From NCBI GenBank assembly GCA_944391065.1, contig CALXSH010000005.1:1876-65875 (forward strand): 64,000 nt of DNA. Reading direction: 5' to 3'. The stretch is from an uncultured Kiritimatiellota bacterium. Lineage in GTDB: Bacteria; Verrucomicrobiota; Kiritimatiellia; RFP12; DVOR01. Below are positions 8,401-48,735 of this stretch, piece by piece. Position numbers and translations under genes: made by a program. Within the stretch, counting starts at the first letter, position 1; each line of letters begins with the position of its first letter. The notes beneath the pieces are model-generated. The model ran no database searches. It had not been told where the DNA came from and saw only the letters and a program-made list of their open reading frames with translations.

Positions 8401-8832
8401 GACGGCCAGAACGTTCGCCCCGTCAAAGCGGACCTTGCCCGTGACGTCGAAGGCAAACTCCGTGTAGCCACCGCGGTGGACGCCGAGCGCCTCGCCGTTG
8501 AGCCATACCTTCGCCTCCTGCATCGCCCCCTCAAAGGTCAGCGTCAGACGCTTGCCCTTCAGCGCCGGATCGGCCGTGAAGGTCCTGCGGTACCAGAAGA
8601 CGCCCAGGTCCTCATGAAAATAACACTCCGGCGTATAGGCGATTGTGCTGTGCGGCACATTGACGTAGAGCCACGCCGAATCGTCCGCGTCCGCCTTCTC
8701 CGCCCCCGGCCATTCACCCGGGCAGTAGCGCCAGTCATTGTTGAAATCTATCGCCGTCCGCGCGACCGTCGTCCCCAACGGCACCCCAAGCGCCGCCGCA
8801 GCCAAAAGCATTCCAAACAAACCGTACCTCAT
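5500..8832 (-). CDS. Secreted glycoside hydrolase family 2 with two C-terminal F5/8 type C (CBM32-like) modules
   Basis: GH2 motifs FEGAMQEAKVWLNG, GGYTEF, YFGGLYRDV, FNFIRMSHYP; acid/base LNE and nucleophile VSEYG; discoidin-like AxDG..T.W / WWQADLG. Start placed at the signal peptide MRYGLFG. Confidence 0.9.
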   Translation of the reverse strand: MRYGLFGMLLAAAALGVPLGTTVARTAIDFNNDWRYCPGEWPGAEKADADDSAWLYVNVPHSTIAYTPECYFHEDLGVFWYRRTFTADPALKGKRLTLTFEGAMQEAKVWLNGEALGVHRGGYTEFAFDVTGKVRFDGANVLAVRLDTRPGATFAPGKSNPDFQYFGGLYRDVRLTATDPVHITDPILSETVAGGGVRLTAPVVSADHAVVRAATEVCNDDAKPASVTLRAELLDGDTVVASAEESRTLEPGTQTTFTPRLTVEKPRLWSPDTPELYTVRTTVLRDGQVTDSVDTVYGIRKVEWKRDGCYINDKRVELVGANLHSESYMRGNALDNDAIDAEIRRLREHGFNFIRMSHYPHDRAFYAACDRYGVAVIDCLAGWQFYSDTPAFRDNCVEQLRDQIRVNRNNPCIVAWEPSLNESGFTRPWAERMHRTVHEELPADGVARAYTGGWIFWDVFDLGVGTPQANVVGDAAKHAKRPVIVSEYGDWNFGGFNSTTRVTREASPYAGTAGGDAGMLVQCDNIQSSFAFNRSLPWYGATAYWDYADYAGFDRQKLTFCGVVDVARLPKFGAAFFRSQTDPDTDLSKYGLKSGPMVYIANTWGADSPRTVRVYTNCDTVELWLDDKLIERRDTPDATMWAPHGRTDNPTDHPKPNQGALVSTEHLAHPPFTFDLSAYTPGQGTLRAVAFRDGQEEPAAEAVRRAPGKAEALALTAEDDRPLRLDGSSAKLVWVEACDAAGTVVTASSAPVTFSVEGPGLVIGPKTVPLRGGQWAVWVRSRRGEGPIVLKAASEGLTPVTLTLPTQTVAGLPPVPPGGDADEHGFVHPKPPAAAANILLGKTASASSVNIGAYGREEPSYANDGAVGTKWCATRPYAADPLNRHWWQADLGTVFNVTSVNVRFEAPADWRVCVAVSHDPTFGNNALPADAVKRVDGHEMTVKLNQPGRYLRVWLRSNTPGRWPCLREVSAQGTAMELVRLDYNAPVTATSCAPGVIPENGNDGNPALYWKPDPSDAAPAWSFDAGTLHLIRDAELAWSGEGPHRYAIDISADGETWTTACDRLSASSDQMGRTTRETLRGEARYVRIRVPAATAEGFWVNITGYPLRQP

Positions 8833-8959
8833 CCCGCGCCTCCTGTAAGCTGCGTCCTCACCCATCCTCGCGGCACCGTCGCCCCGAAGCAGGCACAGTC
8901 TACCAAACCCCGCCCCGCTGCCAAAGGCACCCCGAGAAAAGCCTGTCATGGCGCGGTTT

Positions 8960-9047
8960 TGAAACATCGCCCACGTTTAAAGCATTTGTCGCCCACTTTT
9001 GGAGCATTTGTCGCCCACTTTTGCCTCAATTGTCGCCCACTTTTTGA
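8960..9047. repeat. Array A: 4 imperfect tandem units, 22-bp period, core TCGCCCAC(TTT)
   Basis: TCGCCCAC starts at 8967, 8989, 9011 and 9033. Confidence 0.9.
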
Positions 9048-9093
9048 AACCGGCGTGGGCAAGGCGCGGACAGGGCGGGTGGAAGAGGTGCGC

Positions 9094-9486
9094 TCAGCTG
9101 AGGGCGAAGGGCTGGGGAAAGACGTCACGGAGCGACAGACGCGTCGCGGGGCCGGTGGGGGCGACGAGGAAGATGGGCATGTCCGGGGGGCAGAACTCGG
9201 CAAGGACCTGGCAGCAGGCGCCGCAGGGGGGAACGGGACGCGGGGCGGCGACGGCAAGGGCGGTAAAACGGCGGCAGCCGGCGGCGACGGCGGCGGTGAG
9301 GGCGTTGCGTTCGGCGCAGAGGGTGAGACCGTAGGAGGCGTTCTCGACGTTGCAGCCGGCGTGGACGGTGCCGTCCTCGCCCAAGAGCGCCGCGCCGACG
9401 GCGAACTTGGAGTACGGCGCGTAGGCCGCCTTGGCGGCCTCGCGCGCGGCGGCGGTCAGACGGGTTTCAGGGTCATCGGGTGTCAT
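9094..9486 (-). CDS. cdd: Cytidine deaminase
   Basis: AYAPYSKFAVGAAL, NVENASYGLTLCAER, PCGACCQ zinc motif. Confidence 0.95.
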   Translation of the reverse strand: MTPDDPETRLTAAAREAAKAAYAPYSKFAVGAALLGEDGTVHAGCNVENASYGLTLCAERNALTAAVAAGCRRFTALAVAAPRPVPPCGACCQVLAEFCPPDMPIFLVAPTGPATRLSLRDVFPQPFALS

Positions 9487-45467: not shown

Positions 45468-46049
45468 CTAATCGTTTGACTGGGCCGCATTGTAGCGGTT
45501 CTGGGCCTCACTGACCCCGGAATCGAGGCAGCAAAGGGCGGCGTCGGCACCAAGGGCCGCGGTCTTGGCGGCCGTTTCGGCCTCCTCGGGCGAGAATCGG
45601 TGGAGCACGAAGTCCACCATCGCCTGCCGCGGTTCCTGCGCGCGTCCCACACCCAGACGGATCCGGGCGAAGACCTGCGTGCCGAGGGCTTCGATGATGC
45701 TCCTGAGACCGTTGTGCCCGCCGGCGGAGCCGGAGGGGCGGACGCGGATTCTCCCGGGGGGGAGATCGGCGTCGTCGCTCAGGACGATCACATCGGCGCC
45801 CGTGGCGCCGTAGTACTTGAGGAAGGGCCCTACCGATTCGCCGGAGCGGTTCATGTAGGTCTGTGGCTTCATGAGCCACAGGGTCTGCCCCTTCCGGAGC
45901 ACTTTGGCCACGAGGGCCTGAAACTTTCTGTCGGCCTTCCACTCGGCCCCGAGTCTGTCGGCGAGACTGTCGACGGCCATGAAGCCGAGGTTATGGGGGG
46001 TCCTGGCGTACTGTTCGCCCGGGTTGCCCAATCCGACGATGAGTTTCAT
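45468..46049 (-). CDS. pth: Peptidyl-tRNA hydrolase
   Basis: LIVGLGNPG, HNLGF, KPQTYMNRSG, GGHNGLRS. Confidence 0.97.
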   Translation of the reverse strand: MKLIVGLGNPGEQYARTPHNLGFMAVDSLADRLGAEWKADRKFQALVAKVLRKGQTLWLMKPQTYMNRSGESVGPFLKYYGATGADVIVLSDDADLPPGRIRVRPSGSAGGHNGLRSIIEALGTQVFARIRLGVGRAQEPRQAMVDFVLHRFSPEEAETAAKTAALGADAALCCLDSGVSEAQNRYNAAQSND

Positions 46050-46101
46050 CTGTCCCCGTTGCCTGCCGGCCCGTTCGCGTCAAGCGAGGCCGGTCTCAGG
46101 A

Positions 46102-46746
46102 TTACTTGTCGGCTTCGGCGGCCGGTTTGGCACCGATCACCTCGGGTTCGGCGGCAGCGTCCGTGGCGGGCGCGGCGACTTCGATTTCCTCGTCGGCGGC
46201 CACGCAGGAGACGATGACCGTATTCTTGTGGGTGGCGACGTGATACTTGCTGCCGAGGTTGAGATCGGCGGCGGTGAGCTTGTCGCCGACGCGGAGCGCG
46301 GAAACATCGACGTCGAAGGATTCGACGATGTCGGTCGGCAGGCAGTCGACGTGAATGGCGTGGACATCCTGTTCGAGGACGCCGCCCTGGTTCTTCACGC
46401 CGTCAGGGGTGCCGACGAAGTTGAGGGCGATTTCGACGCGGACGGTGCTGGTCATGCTGACTTCGCCGAAGTCGACATGGGTGGGGGCGCCGGTGATGAC
46501 GTCGTGCTGCACTTCGCGGAGAAGGGCCGTGACGTGGCTGTCACCGAGGTTGAGCCCGACCAGGAGCTGATCGCCGTGATGGCTGCGCATGGTCATCATG
46601 TACTCATGGGCATCGATCGCGATCAGCGTCGTTTCACCCGACATGCGCTTGATGACGCCGGGGATCTTCCCCGCGCGGCGCAGGCGGCCGGCGGCCTTGG
46701 AGCCCTGCTCGGTACGAACGGAGGCGTTGAGTGTAATCTCGTTCAT
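46102..46746 (-). CDS. rplY: 50S ribosomal protein L25/CTC
   Basis: RLRRAGKIPGV, HVDF, GVKNQGGVL. Confidence 0.93.
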   Translation of the reverse strand: MNEITLNASVRTEQGSKAAGRLRRAGKIPGVIKRMSGETTLIAIDAHEYMMTMRSHHGDQLLVGLNLGDSHVTALLREVQHDVITGAPTHVDFGEVSMTSTVRVEIALNFVGTPDGVKNQGGVLEQDVHAIHVDCLPTDIVESFDVDVSALRVGDKLTAADLNLGSKYHVATHKNTVIVSCVAADEEIEVAAPATDAAAEPEVIGAKPAAEADK

Positions 46747-46787: not shown

Positions 46788-47729
46788 TTACGACAGGCGG
46801 AAGAGGGAGGAGACGGACTGGTTGTTATGGATGCGCTGGATCGCCTCGGCCAGCAACGGCGCCACGGAGAGCACCTTGATCGGCAGATCCGTTTCCGCGA
46901 GGGGAATGGAGTCCGTCGTAATGAGCTCTTCGATGAGGCCCTTGTTGGCACGCAGACGGTCGATGCCGACCTGCGTGAGGGGGATATGGGAGACGACCGC
47001 GCGGACACTCCTGGCGCCATGCGACTTCAGCAACTTCGCCGCCGCGCAGAGCGTCCCGCAGGTCGTGGTCATATCATCCACCAGGATCACGTCGCAGCCT
47101 TCAACGTCGCCAACGACGCTGAACGCATCCACTTCCGTGGCACCCAGACGCTGCTTCGCCACGATCGCCAGGCCCGTGCCCAGCATCTGCGAATAAGCGT
47201 AAGCCGTCTTGACCCCGCCGGTATCGGGTGAAACGACAAGCGGCTTATCGAGCTTCATATCGCGCAGGTACTTCACCATAACCGGCGCGGCGTGAAGGTG
47301 ATCCACGGGAATATCAAAAAATCCCTGAATCTGCTGTGCGTGCAGATCCATCGTCAGGACGCGGTTGGCCCCCGCAGCTACGAGGAGGTTCGCGACCAAT
47401 TTCGCCGTGATCGGCACGCGCGGCTGGTCCTTGCGGTCCTGGCGCGCATAACCGTAATACGGCAGCACAGCGGTGATCCGATCGGCGGAGCCACGGCGGG
47501 CCGTGTCGATCATGATCAGCAGTTCCATGAGCATTTCGTTGGGTCTCGTGCAGATCGGCTGCACCAGGAAGAGGTCCGCGCCGCGAACGTTGTCGCTATA
47601 CTTGCAGAAGGTCTCCCCGTCGGGAAAATGACGGATATCGATCGCGCCGAGCGTCGTTCCCATGCACGCCGCGATCTTCTCGGCCAGCGGCCGGTTCGCG
47701 GTACCCGAAAACACCTGTAGGTTTTCCAT
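46788..47729 (-). CDS. prs: Ribose-phosphate pyrophosphokinase
   Basis: FPDGET, PYYGYARQDRK, DLHAQQIQGFF, SPDTGG, LVDDM. Confidence 0.97.
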   Translation of the reverse strand: MENLQVFSGTANRPLAEKIAACMGTTLGAIDIRHFPDGETFCKYSDNVRGADLFLVQPICTRPNEMLMELLIMIDTARRGSADRITAVLPYYGYARQDRKDQPRVPITAKLVANLLVAAGANRVLTMDLHAQQIQGFFDIPVDHLHAAPVMVKYLRDMKLDKPLVVSPDTGGVKTAYAYSQMLGTGLAIVAKQRLGATEVDAFSVVGDVEGCDVILVDDMTTTCGTLCAAAKLLKSHGARSVRAVVSHIPLTQVGIDRLRANKGLIEELITTDSIPLAETDLPIKVLSVAPLLAEAIQRIHNNQSVSSLFRLS

Positions 47730-47751: not shown

Positions 47752-48714
47752 TCAGACGCAGCCTGGTTGCCCGACATGGATTCGAACCATGACTATGGGC
47801 GTCAAAGGCCCGTGTGCTGCCATTACACCATCGGGCAGCGTCTGTGCGCAGACCCGCCGAAACCCGCACAATGCGGGAGCCGACAGAACTTTTTCTCCCT
47901 CTTTGCGCGACCGTACGAGCGCGAAAACCGTCGCGCCGCTTCCGCTCAGGAGCACCGTCCCGCAGCCCGCCTCGCGCAGCGCCTGAGCGCTCCGGGCGAC
48001 CTCCGGGAAACACGAAAAACACGGCGCCTGCAGGTCGTTTACGAGCTGCCGGGCCACGCCGTCGGTGTCTCCATTCCGAAGAGAGAGGCGCAAAGTATCG
48101 CAAAAATCATTCCTTAAAGTCAAGTTATCGGCGCACGCCGCCCCCGGATCCGCGTCAAAGGCGCCGTACACCTTCCCCGTGGGGCAGGCGCATCCGCAGT
48201 TCACCAGCACCGCCCACAAGGGCTCCGCGCCCTCCATCGCCCAGCGCTCCACGCGCTCGCCCCGGCCCGTCATGCGGACCGTCCCGTCCGCCACGAAGAG
48301 CGGCACGTCCGACCCCAGCTCCGCCCCCAGCTCCGAAAGGCGCGCACGCCCCAGGCCCAACCCATACACCCGATCCGTTTCGCGCAGCACCGCCGCCGCG
48401 TCGCTGCTCCCGCCCCCCAGACCGCCCCCGAGCGGAATCCGCTTCACGATCCGAATCCGTACCGGCAGCGGACGGCCCGTCTCGCGTTCCAGGAGGCGCA
48501 CCGCGCGGACCGCCAGGTTGCGCTCCGGGTCCTCCGGCATCGCGCCCAGGTCGACCCCGTCGGGGACGACCTCAAGCGCCGTCCGCTCCGCCCGCTCCAC
48601 CGTCACCCCGTCGCCGAAAGCCAACGGCACGACGACCGAATCGAGATCATGGTAACCGTCCTCCCGCTTCGGGAAGACACGCAGCGTCAGATTGATTTTG
48701 GCAGGGGCTAACAT
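47752..48714 (-). CDS. ispE: 4-diphosphocytidyl-2-C-methyl-D-erythritol kinase (ORF reads through tRNA-Gln)
   Basis: APAKINLTL, KRIPLGGGLGGGSSDAAA, LGSDVP, NDLQ, LSGSGAT. Confidence 0.95.
   Translation of the reverse strand: MLAPAKINLTLRVFPKREDGYHDLDSVVVPLAFGDGVTVERAERTALEVVPDGVDLGAMPEDPERNLAVRAVRLLERETGRPLPVRIRIVKRIPLGGGLGGGSSDAAAVLRETDRVYGLGLGRARLSELGAELGSDVPLFVADGTVRMTGRGERVERWAMEGAEPLWAVLVNCGCACPTGKVYGAFDADPGAACADNLTLRNDFCDTLRLSLRNGDTDGVARQLVNDLQAPCFSCFPEVARSAQALREAGCGTVLLSGSGATVFALVRSRKEGEKVLSAPALCGFRRVCAQTLPDGVMAAHGPLTPIVMVRIHVGQPGCV
47764..47837 (-). tRNA. tRNA-Gln (TTG), CCA encoded
   Basis: TGCCCGA/TCGGGCA acceptor stem, TGGTGTAATGGCAGCAC D-arm, CTTTGAC anticodon loop, GGTTCGAATCC T-arm, ACCA end. 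Confidence 0.95.
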
Positions 48715-48724
48715 AATGCCCGCC

Positions 48725-48735
48725 AGTATAACACA
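48725..48735 (-). promoter_or_regulatory. Extended -10 promoter (TGTGTTATACT) just upstream of ispE
   Basis: TGnTATACT 10 nt before the ATG; the same 11-mer precedes the bamD-like gene at 62968-62978. Confidence 0.55.

What the first reader, a model, noticed from the sequence alone, without database searches (positions are those of the whole stretch)
47752..47850. Entire tRNA-Gln gene is read in frame as the C-terminus of IspE
ispE has no stop before the tRNA. The 74-nt tRNA begins inside a Leu codon and encodes PDGVMAAHGPLTPIVMVRIHVGQP, and the stop comes 12 nt after the CCA. One transcript segment is therefore both an essential mRNA and a pre-tRNA. RNase P cleavage would leave a non-stop ispE mRNA needing tmRNA rescue, and translating ribosomes could block tRNA maturation. 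That would couple isoprenoid synthesis, tRNA-Gln supply and downstream prs expression.
Basis: partly seen in the sequence, partly recalled or inferred. Interest (0 to 1): 0.62.

Follow-up and report, generated by a model that had tools for sequence, protein, structure and literature searches.

The report
tRNA-Gln gene nested inside ispE
In this gut-type Kiritimatiellia bacterium the essential isoprenoid gene ispE has no stop codon of its own and reads through a working glutamine tRNA gene, an overlap conserved across the whole bacterial class, while a promoter hidden inside ispE probably feeds the tRNA and the genes after it.

Summary
The ispE ORF (47752-48714, minus strand, 320 aa) contains the whole tRNA-Gln(UUG) gene (47764-47837). 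The stop TGA ends 12 nt after the CCA.

It is not an assembly error. Six independent assemblies give the identical protein and differ only by synonymous SNPs.

It is not a one-off:
- In 24 fetched loci of the genus the whole tRNA is read through.
- In nearly every family of the order, and in 16 of 20 loci from other families of the class, ispE abuts the tRNA with a -1 to +2 nt spacer. It stops inside the tRNA at positions 8, 13, 42 or 48.
- Other classes of the phylum show 0 of 20 overlaps.

The IspE fold ends exactly at the tRNA boundary, and the 28-aa tail is predicted to be disordered.

New here is an invariant TTGAC-18 nt-NATA(A/C)T motif inside ispE, about 285 nt upstream of the tRNA. It is kept at synonymous sites, so it looks like an embedded sigma-70 promoter for tRNA-Gln-prs-rplY-pth. 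That would largely separate tRNA and prs supply from ispE mRNA.

Non-stop ispE mRNA after RNase P cleavage remains a plausible but untested inference. No RNA data could be reached.

The closest precedent is selC nested in selB (Mukai 2021).

The parts
47752..48714 (-). ispE open reading frame, 320 codons plus stop, including the tRNA-encoded tail
   Evidence: ORF list. TIGR00154 188.6 bits and Pfam GHMP_kinases_N and _C. The identical protein is found in at least 10 independent contigs.
47839..48714 (-). IspE catalytic core, residues 1-292. The last beta-strand (286-292) ends at the tRNA boundary.
   Evidence: The family models stop matching at residue 285 or earlier. The AlphaFold2 model has pLDDT above 90 to about residue 295 and its last strand is E286-292. 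The order-wide alignment ends in a conserved ...W-x5-T.
47764..47837 (-). tRNA-Gln(UUG), 74 nt with encoded CCA. It is the only tRNA-Gln(UUG) gene in the assembly and lies wholly inside the ispE ORF (codons 293-317).
   Evidence: ARAGORN. Rfam 61.6 bits. Genome tRNA inventory. The tRNA is identical in 23 of 24 loci of the genus.
47752..47754 (-). ispE stop codon TGA, inside the conserved 3' trailer motif
   Evidence: Read from the sequence. The same position is used in 10 other loci of the genus.
47753..47759 (-). 3' trailer motif GCGUCUG, complementary to the 5' leader CAGACGC
   Evidence: Conserved in all 24 loci of the genus despite 0-12 nt insertions after the CCA. Predicted duplexes are -14 to -22 kcal/mol. 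The helix appears in the MFE fold, but the z-score is only -1.4.
47838..47844 (-). 5' leader CAGACGC (ispE codons Gln-Thr-Leu), invariant at synonymous sites in the genus. It pairs with the trailer.
   Evidence: Alignment and duplex prediction.
48094..48123 (-). P2, a predicted sigma-70 promoter embedded in ispE codons 198-207: TTGACT, 18 nt, TG-c-GATACT. The predicted start is about 250 nt upstream of the tRNA.
   Evidence: Promoter scan. The motif is invariant in the genus. It sits at a fixed position in 64 loci of the class, with T63 T64 G64 A64 C64 of 64 in the first hexamer. The Leu codon is TTG in 63 of 64, whereas other invariant Leu sites use 5-6 codons. TTG is 5.8% of Leu codons in this genome.
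48725..48733 (-). P1, a predicted extended -10 promoter (TGT-TATACT) 10 nt upstream of the ispE ATG. There is no Shine-Dalgarno sequence, so the ispE mRNA is probably leaderless or nearly so.
   Evidence: Sequence. The same TGnTAnAnT lies 6-7 nt before the ATG in many species of the genus.
46788..47729 (-). prs (ribose-phosphate diphosphokinase). Its ATG lies 34 nt after the CCA and 22 nt after the ispE stop, and a GGAAGGA Shine-Dalgarno sequence lies between.
   Evidence: Pfam and NCBIfam matches. Sequence.
45468..46746 (-). rplY/ctc (46102-46746) and pth (45468-46049), the rest of the co-oriented cluster
   Evidence: Pfam Ribosomal_L25p and TL5_C, and Pept_tRNA_hydro.

Best explanation
This is a real and ancient same-strand gene overlap. 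In the class Kiritimatiellia ispE lost its own stop codon. Its reading frame now abuts tRNA-Gln(UUG) with essentially no spacer and ends wherever the tRNA sequence, or the DNA after it, first offers a stop. In this genus a change in the variable loop (TGA to ATA) removed the internal stop, so the whole tRNA is nested in the ORF.

I infer two overlapping transcription units. P1 is an extended -10 promoter just before the ATG. It makes a near-leaderless, probably weakly expressed ispE mRNA that runs into the tRNA. P2 is a consensus-like sigma-70 promoter embedded in ispE codons 198-207. It makes an untranslated precursor with a leader of about 250 nt, from which tRNA-Gln and the prs-rplY-pth mRNA are cut.

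On this view most tRNA-Gln and prs expression does not depend on ispE mRNA. The 28-residue tRNA-encoded tail is a disordered by-product, made only when a ribosome passes before RNase P cuts. P1 transcripts that are cut first become stop-less and are cleared by tmRNA-SmpB or the ArfB-like factor.

Shown: the overlap, its conservation, DNA-level selection on the promoter motif, the end of the fold at the tRNA boundary, and the presence of the RNase P RNA and rescue genes. Inferred: the transcription starts, the cleavage, how often the tail is translated, and the neutrality of the tail.
For: - Overlap and its conservation. All 30 closest loci share the junction ..T-L|PDGVMAAHGPL in the same frame. 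Of 20 further loci from the order, 18 show an overlap, with stops at tRNA positions 8, 13, 42 or 48 or beyond the tRNA. G118 has a spacer and G029 has no tRNA nearby. In other families of the class 16 of 20 loci overlap, and in other classes of the phylum 0 of 20 do.
- Whole-tRNA read-through arose at least six times and in two frames that give different peptides. Tail length and sequence therefore seem unselected.
- The tail looks non-coding. GC3 is 0.57 against 0.82 for the core, and the CAI-like index is 0.29 against 0.53. AlphaFold2 gives pLDDT below 50 for residues 299-319, while the core is above 90 and ends with strand 286-292.
- P2. TTGAC is invariant, and NATA(A/C)T follows 18 nt later at a fixed position in 64 loci. 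The first -10 codon varies among Asp, Asn, His and Tyr but is always NAT. The Leu codon is TTG in 63 of 64, while four other invariant Leu sites in the same genes use 5-6 codons. Genome usage is TTG 5.8% of Leu and ACT 3.1% of Thr codons.
- In G118, where the tRNA is separated from ispE, TTGACA-17-TATACT sits 85 nt upstream of the tRNA in AT-rich spacer.
- The tRNA is functional. It is the sole tRNA-Gln(UUG) gene and is nearly invariant in the genus, whereas IspE is 59-70% identical.
- The machinery is present: RNase P RNA at 219.5 bits, tmRNA, SmpB, an ArfB-like GGQ protein with a basic tail, and IspF.
Against: - There is no transcript, 5'/3'-end or proteomic evidence.
- P2 is a comparative prediction only. 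Outside the order the -10 is weaker in several families (AAAGAT, AAAAGT, ACAAGG), although TTGAC stays. The 18-nt spacer is one longer than optimal.
- A by-product reading does not explain why the near-zero spacer has persisted for so long.
- It also does not explain the leader-trailer complementarity that embraces the stop codon in this genus.
- If RNase P cuts P1 transcripts quickly, the cell pays a constant ribosome-rescue cost on an essential gene. That would suggest the arrangement is more than neutral.
Confidence: 0.62

Rival explanations
1. Regulatory coupling. ispE and the tRNA are matured from one transcript. RNase P cleavage turns ispE mRNA into a non-stop message, so IspE output is set by the race between ribosomes and RNase P. 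tmRNA tagging serves as a built-in throttle linking isoprenoid synthesis to tRNA processing and rescue capacity.
For: No relative has a stop upstream of the tRNA. RNase P RNA, tmRNA, SmpB and an ArfB-like factor are all encoded. No terminator lies between ispE and the tRNA. The spacer has been held at -1 to +2 nt across the class. The leader-trailer helix spans the RNase P site and the stop codon.
Against: The embedded promoter P2 gives the tRNA and prs an ispE-independent source. The stop position wanders freely: tRNA positions 8, 13, 42, 48, 75 and 81-120. No RNA or protein data exist.
Confidence: 0.2
2. Translational coupling to prs. The ORF is kept open through the tRNA so that ribosomes finishing ispE terminate close to the prs ribosome-binding site. 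There they melt structure or re-initiate.
For: In the window the stop lies 22 nt before the prs ATG, just upstream of GGAAGGA. In L004 the stop is 4 nt before the ATG.
Against: Seven loci of the genus stop immediately after the CCA, about 40 nt before prs. Most of the class stops inside the tRNA. There is no ATGA-type stop-start overlap here. P2 transcripts would carry prs without any upstream translation.
Confidence: 0.08
3. The tRNA-encoded tail has a protein-level role, for example as a degron, a localisation signal or an autoinhibitory element of IspE.
For: The tail PDGVMAAHGPL... is nearly invariant wherever the frame is the same.
Against: That invariance is explained by the tRNA. G094 reads the tRNA in another frame and gives an unrelated peptide. 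Tails range from 2 to more than 40 residues. The tail is predicted to be disordered and its codon usage is non-coding-like.
Confidence: 0.05
4. Artefact: an assembly or sequencing error removed the true stop, or the tRNA or ispE is a pseudogene.
For: The genome is a metagenome-assembled draft of 79 contigs, 94% complete.
Against: The protein is identical in at least 10 independently assembled contigs carrying different synonymous SNPs. The same junction occurs in more than 80 genomes. The tRNA scores 61.6 bits and is the only UUG isoacceptor. IspE has all its family motifs.
Confidence: 0.01

Closest known systems
selC (tRNA-Sec) nested inside the selB ORF in Alphaproteobacteria, with partial overlaps in Dyella/Luteibacter and Nitrospirae (Mukai 2021, Int J Mol Sci 22:4605, PMC8124441; read)
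   Same: A complete same-strand tRNA gene lies inside the 3' end of a protein ORF, and the C-terminal extension is the translated tRNA. Related lineages have the stop in the middle of the tRNA (nt 46-48 there, 42-50 here). The trait is conserved but was lost in some lineages. Both cases rest on bioinformatic evidence only.
   Different: selB and selC are functional partners, and a stoichiometry-control model was proposed for them. IspE and tRNA-Gln have no known functional link. Here the tRNA is a housekeeping elongator and the sole UUG isoacceptor. There is no stop-start overlap with the next ORF. A conserved promoter for the tRNA is embedded further upstream in the host ORF. [quoted passage not shown]
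The widespread ispE-tRNA-Gln(UUG)-prs-(ctc-pth) gene order of other bacteria
   Same: The genes, their order and their strand are the same. In my sample of 80 ispE loci, 15 outside this class have tRNA-Gln(UUG) downstream. They come from beta-, gamma- and deltaproteobacteria, Acidobacteria, Nitrospirae, Elusimicrobia, Zixibacteria, Heliobacteria and Binatus.
   Different: There ispE has its own stop 3-351 nt before the tRNA. Only the two Kiritimatiellia-like loci overlap, both by 44 nt.
Mitochondrial tRNA punctuation and tRNA/protein gene overlaps (established knowledge; Ojala et al. 1981. Mukai 2021 cites Armadillidium mitochondria)
   Same: Protein genes abut or overlap tRNA genes, and tRNA excision defines the mRNA ends.
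   Different: In mitochondria incomplete stops (T or TA) are completed by polyadenylation. Here the RNase P product would end ...ACG-C, which adenylation cannot turn into a stop.
arfA mRNA of E. coli, an obligately truncated non-stop mRNA made by RNase III and policed by tmRNA (established knowledge; Garza-Sanchez 2011, Chadani 2011, cited from memory)
   Same: It is a precedent for a functional protein made from an mRNA that is cut inside its ORF, with output governed by tmRNA.
   Different: Cleavage there is by RNase III at a hairpin, and the regulatory logic is demonstrated. Here cleavage is only inferred.

Membership tests
IspE (4-diphosphocytidyl-2-C-methyl-D-erythritol kinase, GHMP kinase superfamily) | Scores above the curated cut-off of an equivalog model | tested here: met
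   TIGR00154 scores 188.6 bits against a cut-off of 138.7, and NF011202 scores 204.3 against 204.
IspE (4-diphosphocytidyl-2-C-methyl-D-erythritol kinase, GHMP kinase superfamily) | GHMP N- and C-terminal domains and the glycine-rich ATP motif P-x-G-x-G-L-G-G-G-S-S | tested here: met
   PF00288 and PF08544 both match. IPLGGGLGGGSSDAA is invariant in the alignments. The predicted fold is confident, with pTM 0.87.
IspE (4-diphosphocytidyl-2-C-methyl-D-erythritol kinase, GHMP kinase superfamily) | Kinase activity on CDP-ME | not testable with these tools
   The pathway context is present, since IspF is encoded.
Bacterial elongator tRNA-Gln | Cloverleaf scoring above the Rfam gathering score, with anticodon UUG | tested here: met
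   ARAGORN. RF00005 scores 61.6 bits against 29 over the full model, positions 1-71.
Bacterial elongator tRNA-Gln | A functional gene rather than a relic: needed as an isoacceptor and under purifying selection | tested here: met
   It is the only UUG isoacceptor in the 94%-complete assembly. It is identical in 23 of 24 loci of the genus, whose IspE proteins are 59-70% identical.
Bacterial elongator tRNA-Gln | Expression, processing and aminoacylation | not testable with these tools
Nested tRNA gene inside a bacterial protein ORF (selB-selC type, Mukai 2021) | The entire tRNA sequence lies on the same strand inside the annotated ORF with no earlier in-frame stop | tested here: met
Nested tRNA gene inside a bacterial protein ORF (selB-selC type, Mukai 2021) | The trait is conserved among relatives, with partial-overlap and lost-overlap variants | tested here: met
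   The overlap is lost in f21, f31, f55 and G118.
Nested tRNA gene inside a bacterial protein ORF (selB-selC type, Mukai 2021) | [quoted passage not shown] | tested here: not met
   There are 22 nt between the TGA (47752-47754) and the prs ATG (47729).
Sigma-70 (RpoD) promoter, for P2 inside ispE | -35 and -10 hexamers at 16-18 nt spacing | tested here: met
   TTGACT-18-GATACT with TG. The genus consensus is TTGACA-18-TGnGATAAT.
Sigma-70 (RpoD) promoter, for P2 inside ispE | Conservation beyond what the encoded protein requires | tested here: met
   The codons are fixed while the amino acids vary. Control Leu sites use 5-6 codons. The genome's codon usage is given.
Sigma-70 (RpoD) promoter, for P2 inside ispE | A transcription start mapped downstream of the -10 | not testable with these tools
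   No RNA data were available.
Natural non-stop mRNA / tmRNA substrate | An mRNA 3' end generated inside the ORF, and an SsrA-tagged or ArfB-released product | not testable with these tools
   Only the components are shown to be encoded.

The most novel reading that the evidence does not exclude
In Kiritimatiellia IspE is routinely made from a stop-less message. RNase P removes the tRNA, and with it the only stop codon, from ispE mRNA. The enzyme, whose fold ends exactly at the cut, is then released by ArfB or tagged by tmRNA. Ribosome rescue would be an obligatory step in expressing an essential metabolic gene. The leader-trailer helix around the tRNA would tune that cleavage.
Probability: 0.15. 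Interest if true: 0.8.

Novelty: new member of a known kind. Interest (0 to 1): 0.55.

Why it matters
- It is a second case of a working tRNA gene nested in a bacterial protein ORF, after selB-selC, and it is phylogenetically much deeper. It involves an essential enzyme and the only isoacceptor for CAA.
- It offers a natural system for asking what happens when RNase P and ribosomes compete for the same RNA, and whether non-stop rescue is used constitutively.
- It shows how a promoter can be maintained inside a coding sequence purely through codon choice.
- There is a practical annotation consequence. To my knowledge Prokka by default drops CDSs that overlap tRNA genes. It would then lose ispE across this class and make the MEP pathway look incomplete. 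Callers that keep the ORF deposit IspE proteins carrying a spurious-looking 15-30 residue tail; P0094 and P0107 from NCBI records carry it.

Tried and rejected
I substituted independent assemblies.
- Assembly error and pseudogene were rejected.
- Mitochondrial-style stop completion by polyadenylation was rejected. The RNase P product would end ...ACG-C (ACC or ACC-AU in other frames), and adding A residues gives CAA, AAA or AUA, not a stop (sequences).
- Leader-trailer helix as a general feature. It is strong only in family f1: the genus at -14 to -22 kcal/mol and G058 at -15.9 with a different sequence. Most other families fall in the range expected by chance, -3 to -10. The MFE z-score for the window is only -1.4. 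There is no covariation within the genus because the leader is invariant. I kept it as an unexplained side observation.
- Literature. Searches for ispE with tRNA-Gln and prs, for tRNA/CDS overlap terms, and for Kiritimatiellae with ispE found nothing on this locus. One search failed on syntax.
That sample proved useful as a background.
- Exact taxonomy. Only record titles are available (Kiritimatiellae, Kiritimatiellia or Lentisphaerae bacterium MAGs). Order and family names are not known to me.
Full report
**1. The observation**

The minus strand of 45.4-48.8 kb carries ispE, tRNA-Gln, prs, rplY/ctc and pth, all in the same orientation.

- ARAGORN finds tRNA-Gln(UUG) at 47764-47837. Rfam's tRNA model matches end to end at 61.6 bits against a gathering score of 29.
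- The ispE ORF runs from the ATG at 48714 to the TGA at 47754-47752, which is 320 codons.
- tRNA base 1 is the second base of Leu codon 293. The tRNA supplies the residues PDGVMAAHGPLTPIVMVRIHVGQP. Three more codons (GCV) and the stop follow the encoded CCA.
- The family models for IspE stop matching at residue 285 or earlier.

**2. It is not an error**

The exact 320-aa protein is called on at least 10 contigs from unrelated assemblies, four Logan runs and two ENA assemblies among them. Six of these were compared base by base over ispE to the prs start. They differ from the window by 2-5 substitutions, all synonymous, with no indel.

**3. It is conserved, and the window is the extreme form**

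*Genus and order.* A six-frame search of 40 relatives aligned the query right through the tRNA-encoded residues.
- After orienting the 30 fetched loci on the tRNA, every one has ispE entering tRNA-Gln in the same frame at the junction ..T-L|PDGVMAAHGPL.
- All 24 loci of the genus read the whole tRNA. The stop comes either directly after the CCA (TAA, 7 loci) or 6-34 nt later.
- Other families of the order mostly stop at TGA in the variable loop, tRNA positions 42-44.
- A 301-genome survey of the order, plus 20 further loci, showed other solutions. In the largest family the tRNA starts in codon position 1 or 3, and ispE stops at the D-loop TAA (positions 13-15) or at TGA (positions 8-10). One family stops at TAG at position 48.
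- The last conserved IspE residue is a Thr. It is separated from tRNA base 1 by only -1 to +2 nt everywhere.

*Repeated origin of full read-through.* Besides this genus it occurs in G025, G044, G090 and the G120 genus. In G094 it occurs in a different frame that yields an unrelated peptide. That makes at least six origins.

*Class, phylum and other bacteria.*
- In other families of the class, 16 of 20 loci overlap by 15, 44 or 50 nt. Three families have spacers of +3 to +75 nt.
- In other classes of the phylum none of 20 loci overlaps, and 19 have no tRNA-Gln nearby.
- A near-random sample of 80 bacterial ispE loci shows that ispE followed by tRNA-Gln(UUG) is widespread, but with spacers of +3 to +351 nt.
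- Only two loci in that sample overlap. One is labelled Kiritimatiellae. The other is labelled uncultured Akkermansia but resembles this order.

*Taxonomy.* Record names of close homologues read Kiritimatiellia or Lentisphaerae bacterium. I therefore place the window in the class Kiritimatiellia and cannot name the order.

**4. What the tail is**

- An AlphaFold2 model built on 82 homologues is confident for the kinase (pTM 0.87). Its last strand, residues 286-292, ends at the tRNA boundary. Residues 299-319 have pLDDT below 50 and no secondary structure.
- The tail's codon usage looks non-coding: GC3 is 0.57 against 0.82 for the core, and many codons are rare.
- Tails in relatives range from 2 to more than 40 residues and come in two frames.
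- I conclude that the tail sequence is dictated by the tRNA and is not selected as protein.

**5. The tRNA is a working, needed gene**

- It is the only UUG isoacceptor in the 94%-complete assembly. One CUG isoacceptor lies elsewhere.
- It is identical in 23 of 24 loci of the genus, while IspE is only 59-70% identical.
- The assembly also encodes RNase P RNA, tmRNA with the tag ANDNFAYAA and SmpB.
- It encodes a short GGQ protein with a basic tail, like ArfB, and the next enzyme of the MEP pathway, IspF.

**6. A promoter hidden in ispE**

- The simple promoter scan found TTGACT-18-GATACT with an upstream TG at 48123-48094 on the minus strand, inside ispE.
- In the genus alignment this is the one island of perfect DNA conservation in a stretch where the protein is poorly conserved and variable in length.
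- Across 64 loci of the class the motif sits at a fixed distance from the tRNA: -282 to -289 in the order and -295 to -303 elsewhere. Counts out of 64 are T63 T64 G64 A64 C64 in the first hexamer. In the second hexamer, NATA(A/C)T, they are A58 T51 A62 (A or C)59 T62.
- The encoded Leu is always TTG. The one exception is Val GTG, which keeps TGAC. Four other invariant Leu positions in the same genes and genomes use five or six codons each.
- TTG is 5.8% of Leu codons and ACT 3.1% of Thr codons in this genome.
- The first -10 codon changes amino acid (Asp, Asn, His, Tyr) but is always NAT.
- This is selection on the DNA, and a sigma-70 promoter is the obvious reading.
- In G118, where the tRNA is separated from ispE by an AT-rich spacer, TTGACA-17-TATACT lies 85 nt upstream of the tRNA.
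- The predicted start gives a leader of about 250 nt made of untranslated ispE 3' sequence.
- The promoter falls in the low-confidence, length-variable loop of the model, around residues 190-200.
- Caveats: outside the order the -10 is degenerate in several families, and no transcript start has been mapped.

**7. ispE's own promoter**

TGT-TATACT lies 10 nt before the ispE ATG, and there is no Shine-Dalgarno sequence. In many species of the genus TGnTAnAnT lies 6-7 nt before the ATG. This suggests a leaderless or nearly leaderless ispE mRNA. This too is inference.

**8. How it most likely works**

- Two nested transcription units share the tRNA.
- P2 transcripts are not translated across the tRNA. 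They probably provide most of the tRNA-Gln and the prs-rplY-pth mRNA.
- P1 transcripts carry ispE and run into the tRNA. A ribosome that arrives before RNase P adds the disordered tail and terminates 22 nt before the prs start.
- Once RNase P has cut, the ispE mRNA has no stop. The remaining ribosomes must be rescued, either by ArfB (untagged IspE ending at its natural fold boundary) or by tmRNA (tagged and degraded).
- I rate the anatomy and its evolution as near certain, the two-promoter architecture as likely, and the fate of P1 transcripts as open.

**9. Rivals**

It is weakened by P2 and by the free drift of the stop position.
- Translational coupling to prs fits the window (22-nt gap) and L004 (4-nt gap). 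It does not fit the seven loci that stop right after the CCA, nor the bulk of the class.
- A protein-level role for the tail is contradicted by the two frames and the variable lengths.
- An artefact is excluded.

**10. Comparison with what is known**

Mukai (2021, PMC8124441) described selC nested in selB in Alphaproteobacteria, with partial overlaps whose stop lies at tRNA nt 46-48 in Dyella and Luteibacter. The paper called this the first report of a tRNA gene nested in a bacterial ORF.

The present case is the same kind of arrangement. It differs in three ways:
- The gene pair is functionally unrelated.
- It spans a whole class.
- It comes with an embedded promoter.

I found no paper on ispE/tRNA-Gln. 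Earlier unchecked notes of this scan report ispE/tRNA-Gln overlaps in at least 19 other genomes. One is a followed-up Aminicenantes-like clade, and one note places the tRNA promoter inside ispE. I did not test those genomes. My 80-locus sample found overlaps only in Kiritimatiellia-like records, so such clades must be scattered.

**11. Verdict**

This is a real feature, conserved class-wide. It is a new member of the nested-tRNA kind, of moderate to high interest mainly as a test bed for RNase P versus ribosome competition and for promoters maintained within codons.

Noticed in passing
window 47838-47844 and 47753-47759 (minus strand); loci L001-L023, L028, L031: The 7 nt before the tRNA (CAGACGC) and a motif after it (GCGUCUG, containing the ispE stop in the window) are reverse complements. 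Both are conserved through the genus despite 0-12 nt insertions after the CCA. The sister genus (G058) pairs GCUCGC with GCGAGC instead. The helix would extend the acceptor stem across the RNase P site. Its role is unknown.
   Followed up: partly
window 48712-48733 (minus strand); genus loci: An extended -10 element (TGnTAnAnT) lies 6-10 nt before the ispE ATG with no Shine-Dalgarno sequence in most species of the genus, so the ispE mRNA is probably leaderless. A few species (L007, L009, L010, L021) instead have a longer leader with AAAGGAG.
   Followed up: partly
L020-L023, L028 (G004, G006, G007, G008, G011); proteins P0013, P0017-P0034, P0056: Several species of the genus carry in-frame, low-complexity insertions of about 20-110 residues in IspE, immediately upstream of the embedded -35 element. 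This is the loop that the structure model predicts with low confidence. The promoter-proximal coding region seems free to expand.
   Followed up: no
L010 (G017), just after the tRNA: There is a 34-nt tandem duplication of the tRNA 3' end plus trailer (TCGAATCCATGTCGGGCAACCATGCAGCGTCTGA, twice) between the tRNA and prs. It could be a footprint of integration or slippage at the tRNA 3' end.
   Followed up: no
G000 contig C21, about 8800-9200 (minus strand), outside the window: A 135-aa protein has a GGQ motif (GSGSGGQKINK) and a strongly basic C-terminal tail, as in the ribosome-rescue factor ArfB. It is encoded alongside tmRNA (C39) and SmpB (C2).
   Followed up: partly
class-level survey: Only 90 of 201 genomes of the class gave any IspE match in six-frame search, and 73 of 168 among high-quality genomes. 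About half the class therefore apparently lacks the MEP pathway kinase and may use another isoprenoid route.
   Followed up: no
window 47767-47769 (minus strand), codon 316 of the ORF: The tRNA-encoded tail contains a CAA codon (tRNA positions 69-71). CAA is the rare Gln codon (8.8% of Gln codons), which is read by this same tRNA-Gln(UUG).
   Followed up: no
public proteins P0094 and P0107: NCBI-annotated IspE proteins from Lentisphaerae and Kiritimatiellia MAGs end in ...TLPDGVMAAHG(F/P)LEP. The tRNA-encoded residues are therefore already deposited as protein sequence without comment.
   Followed up: partly
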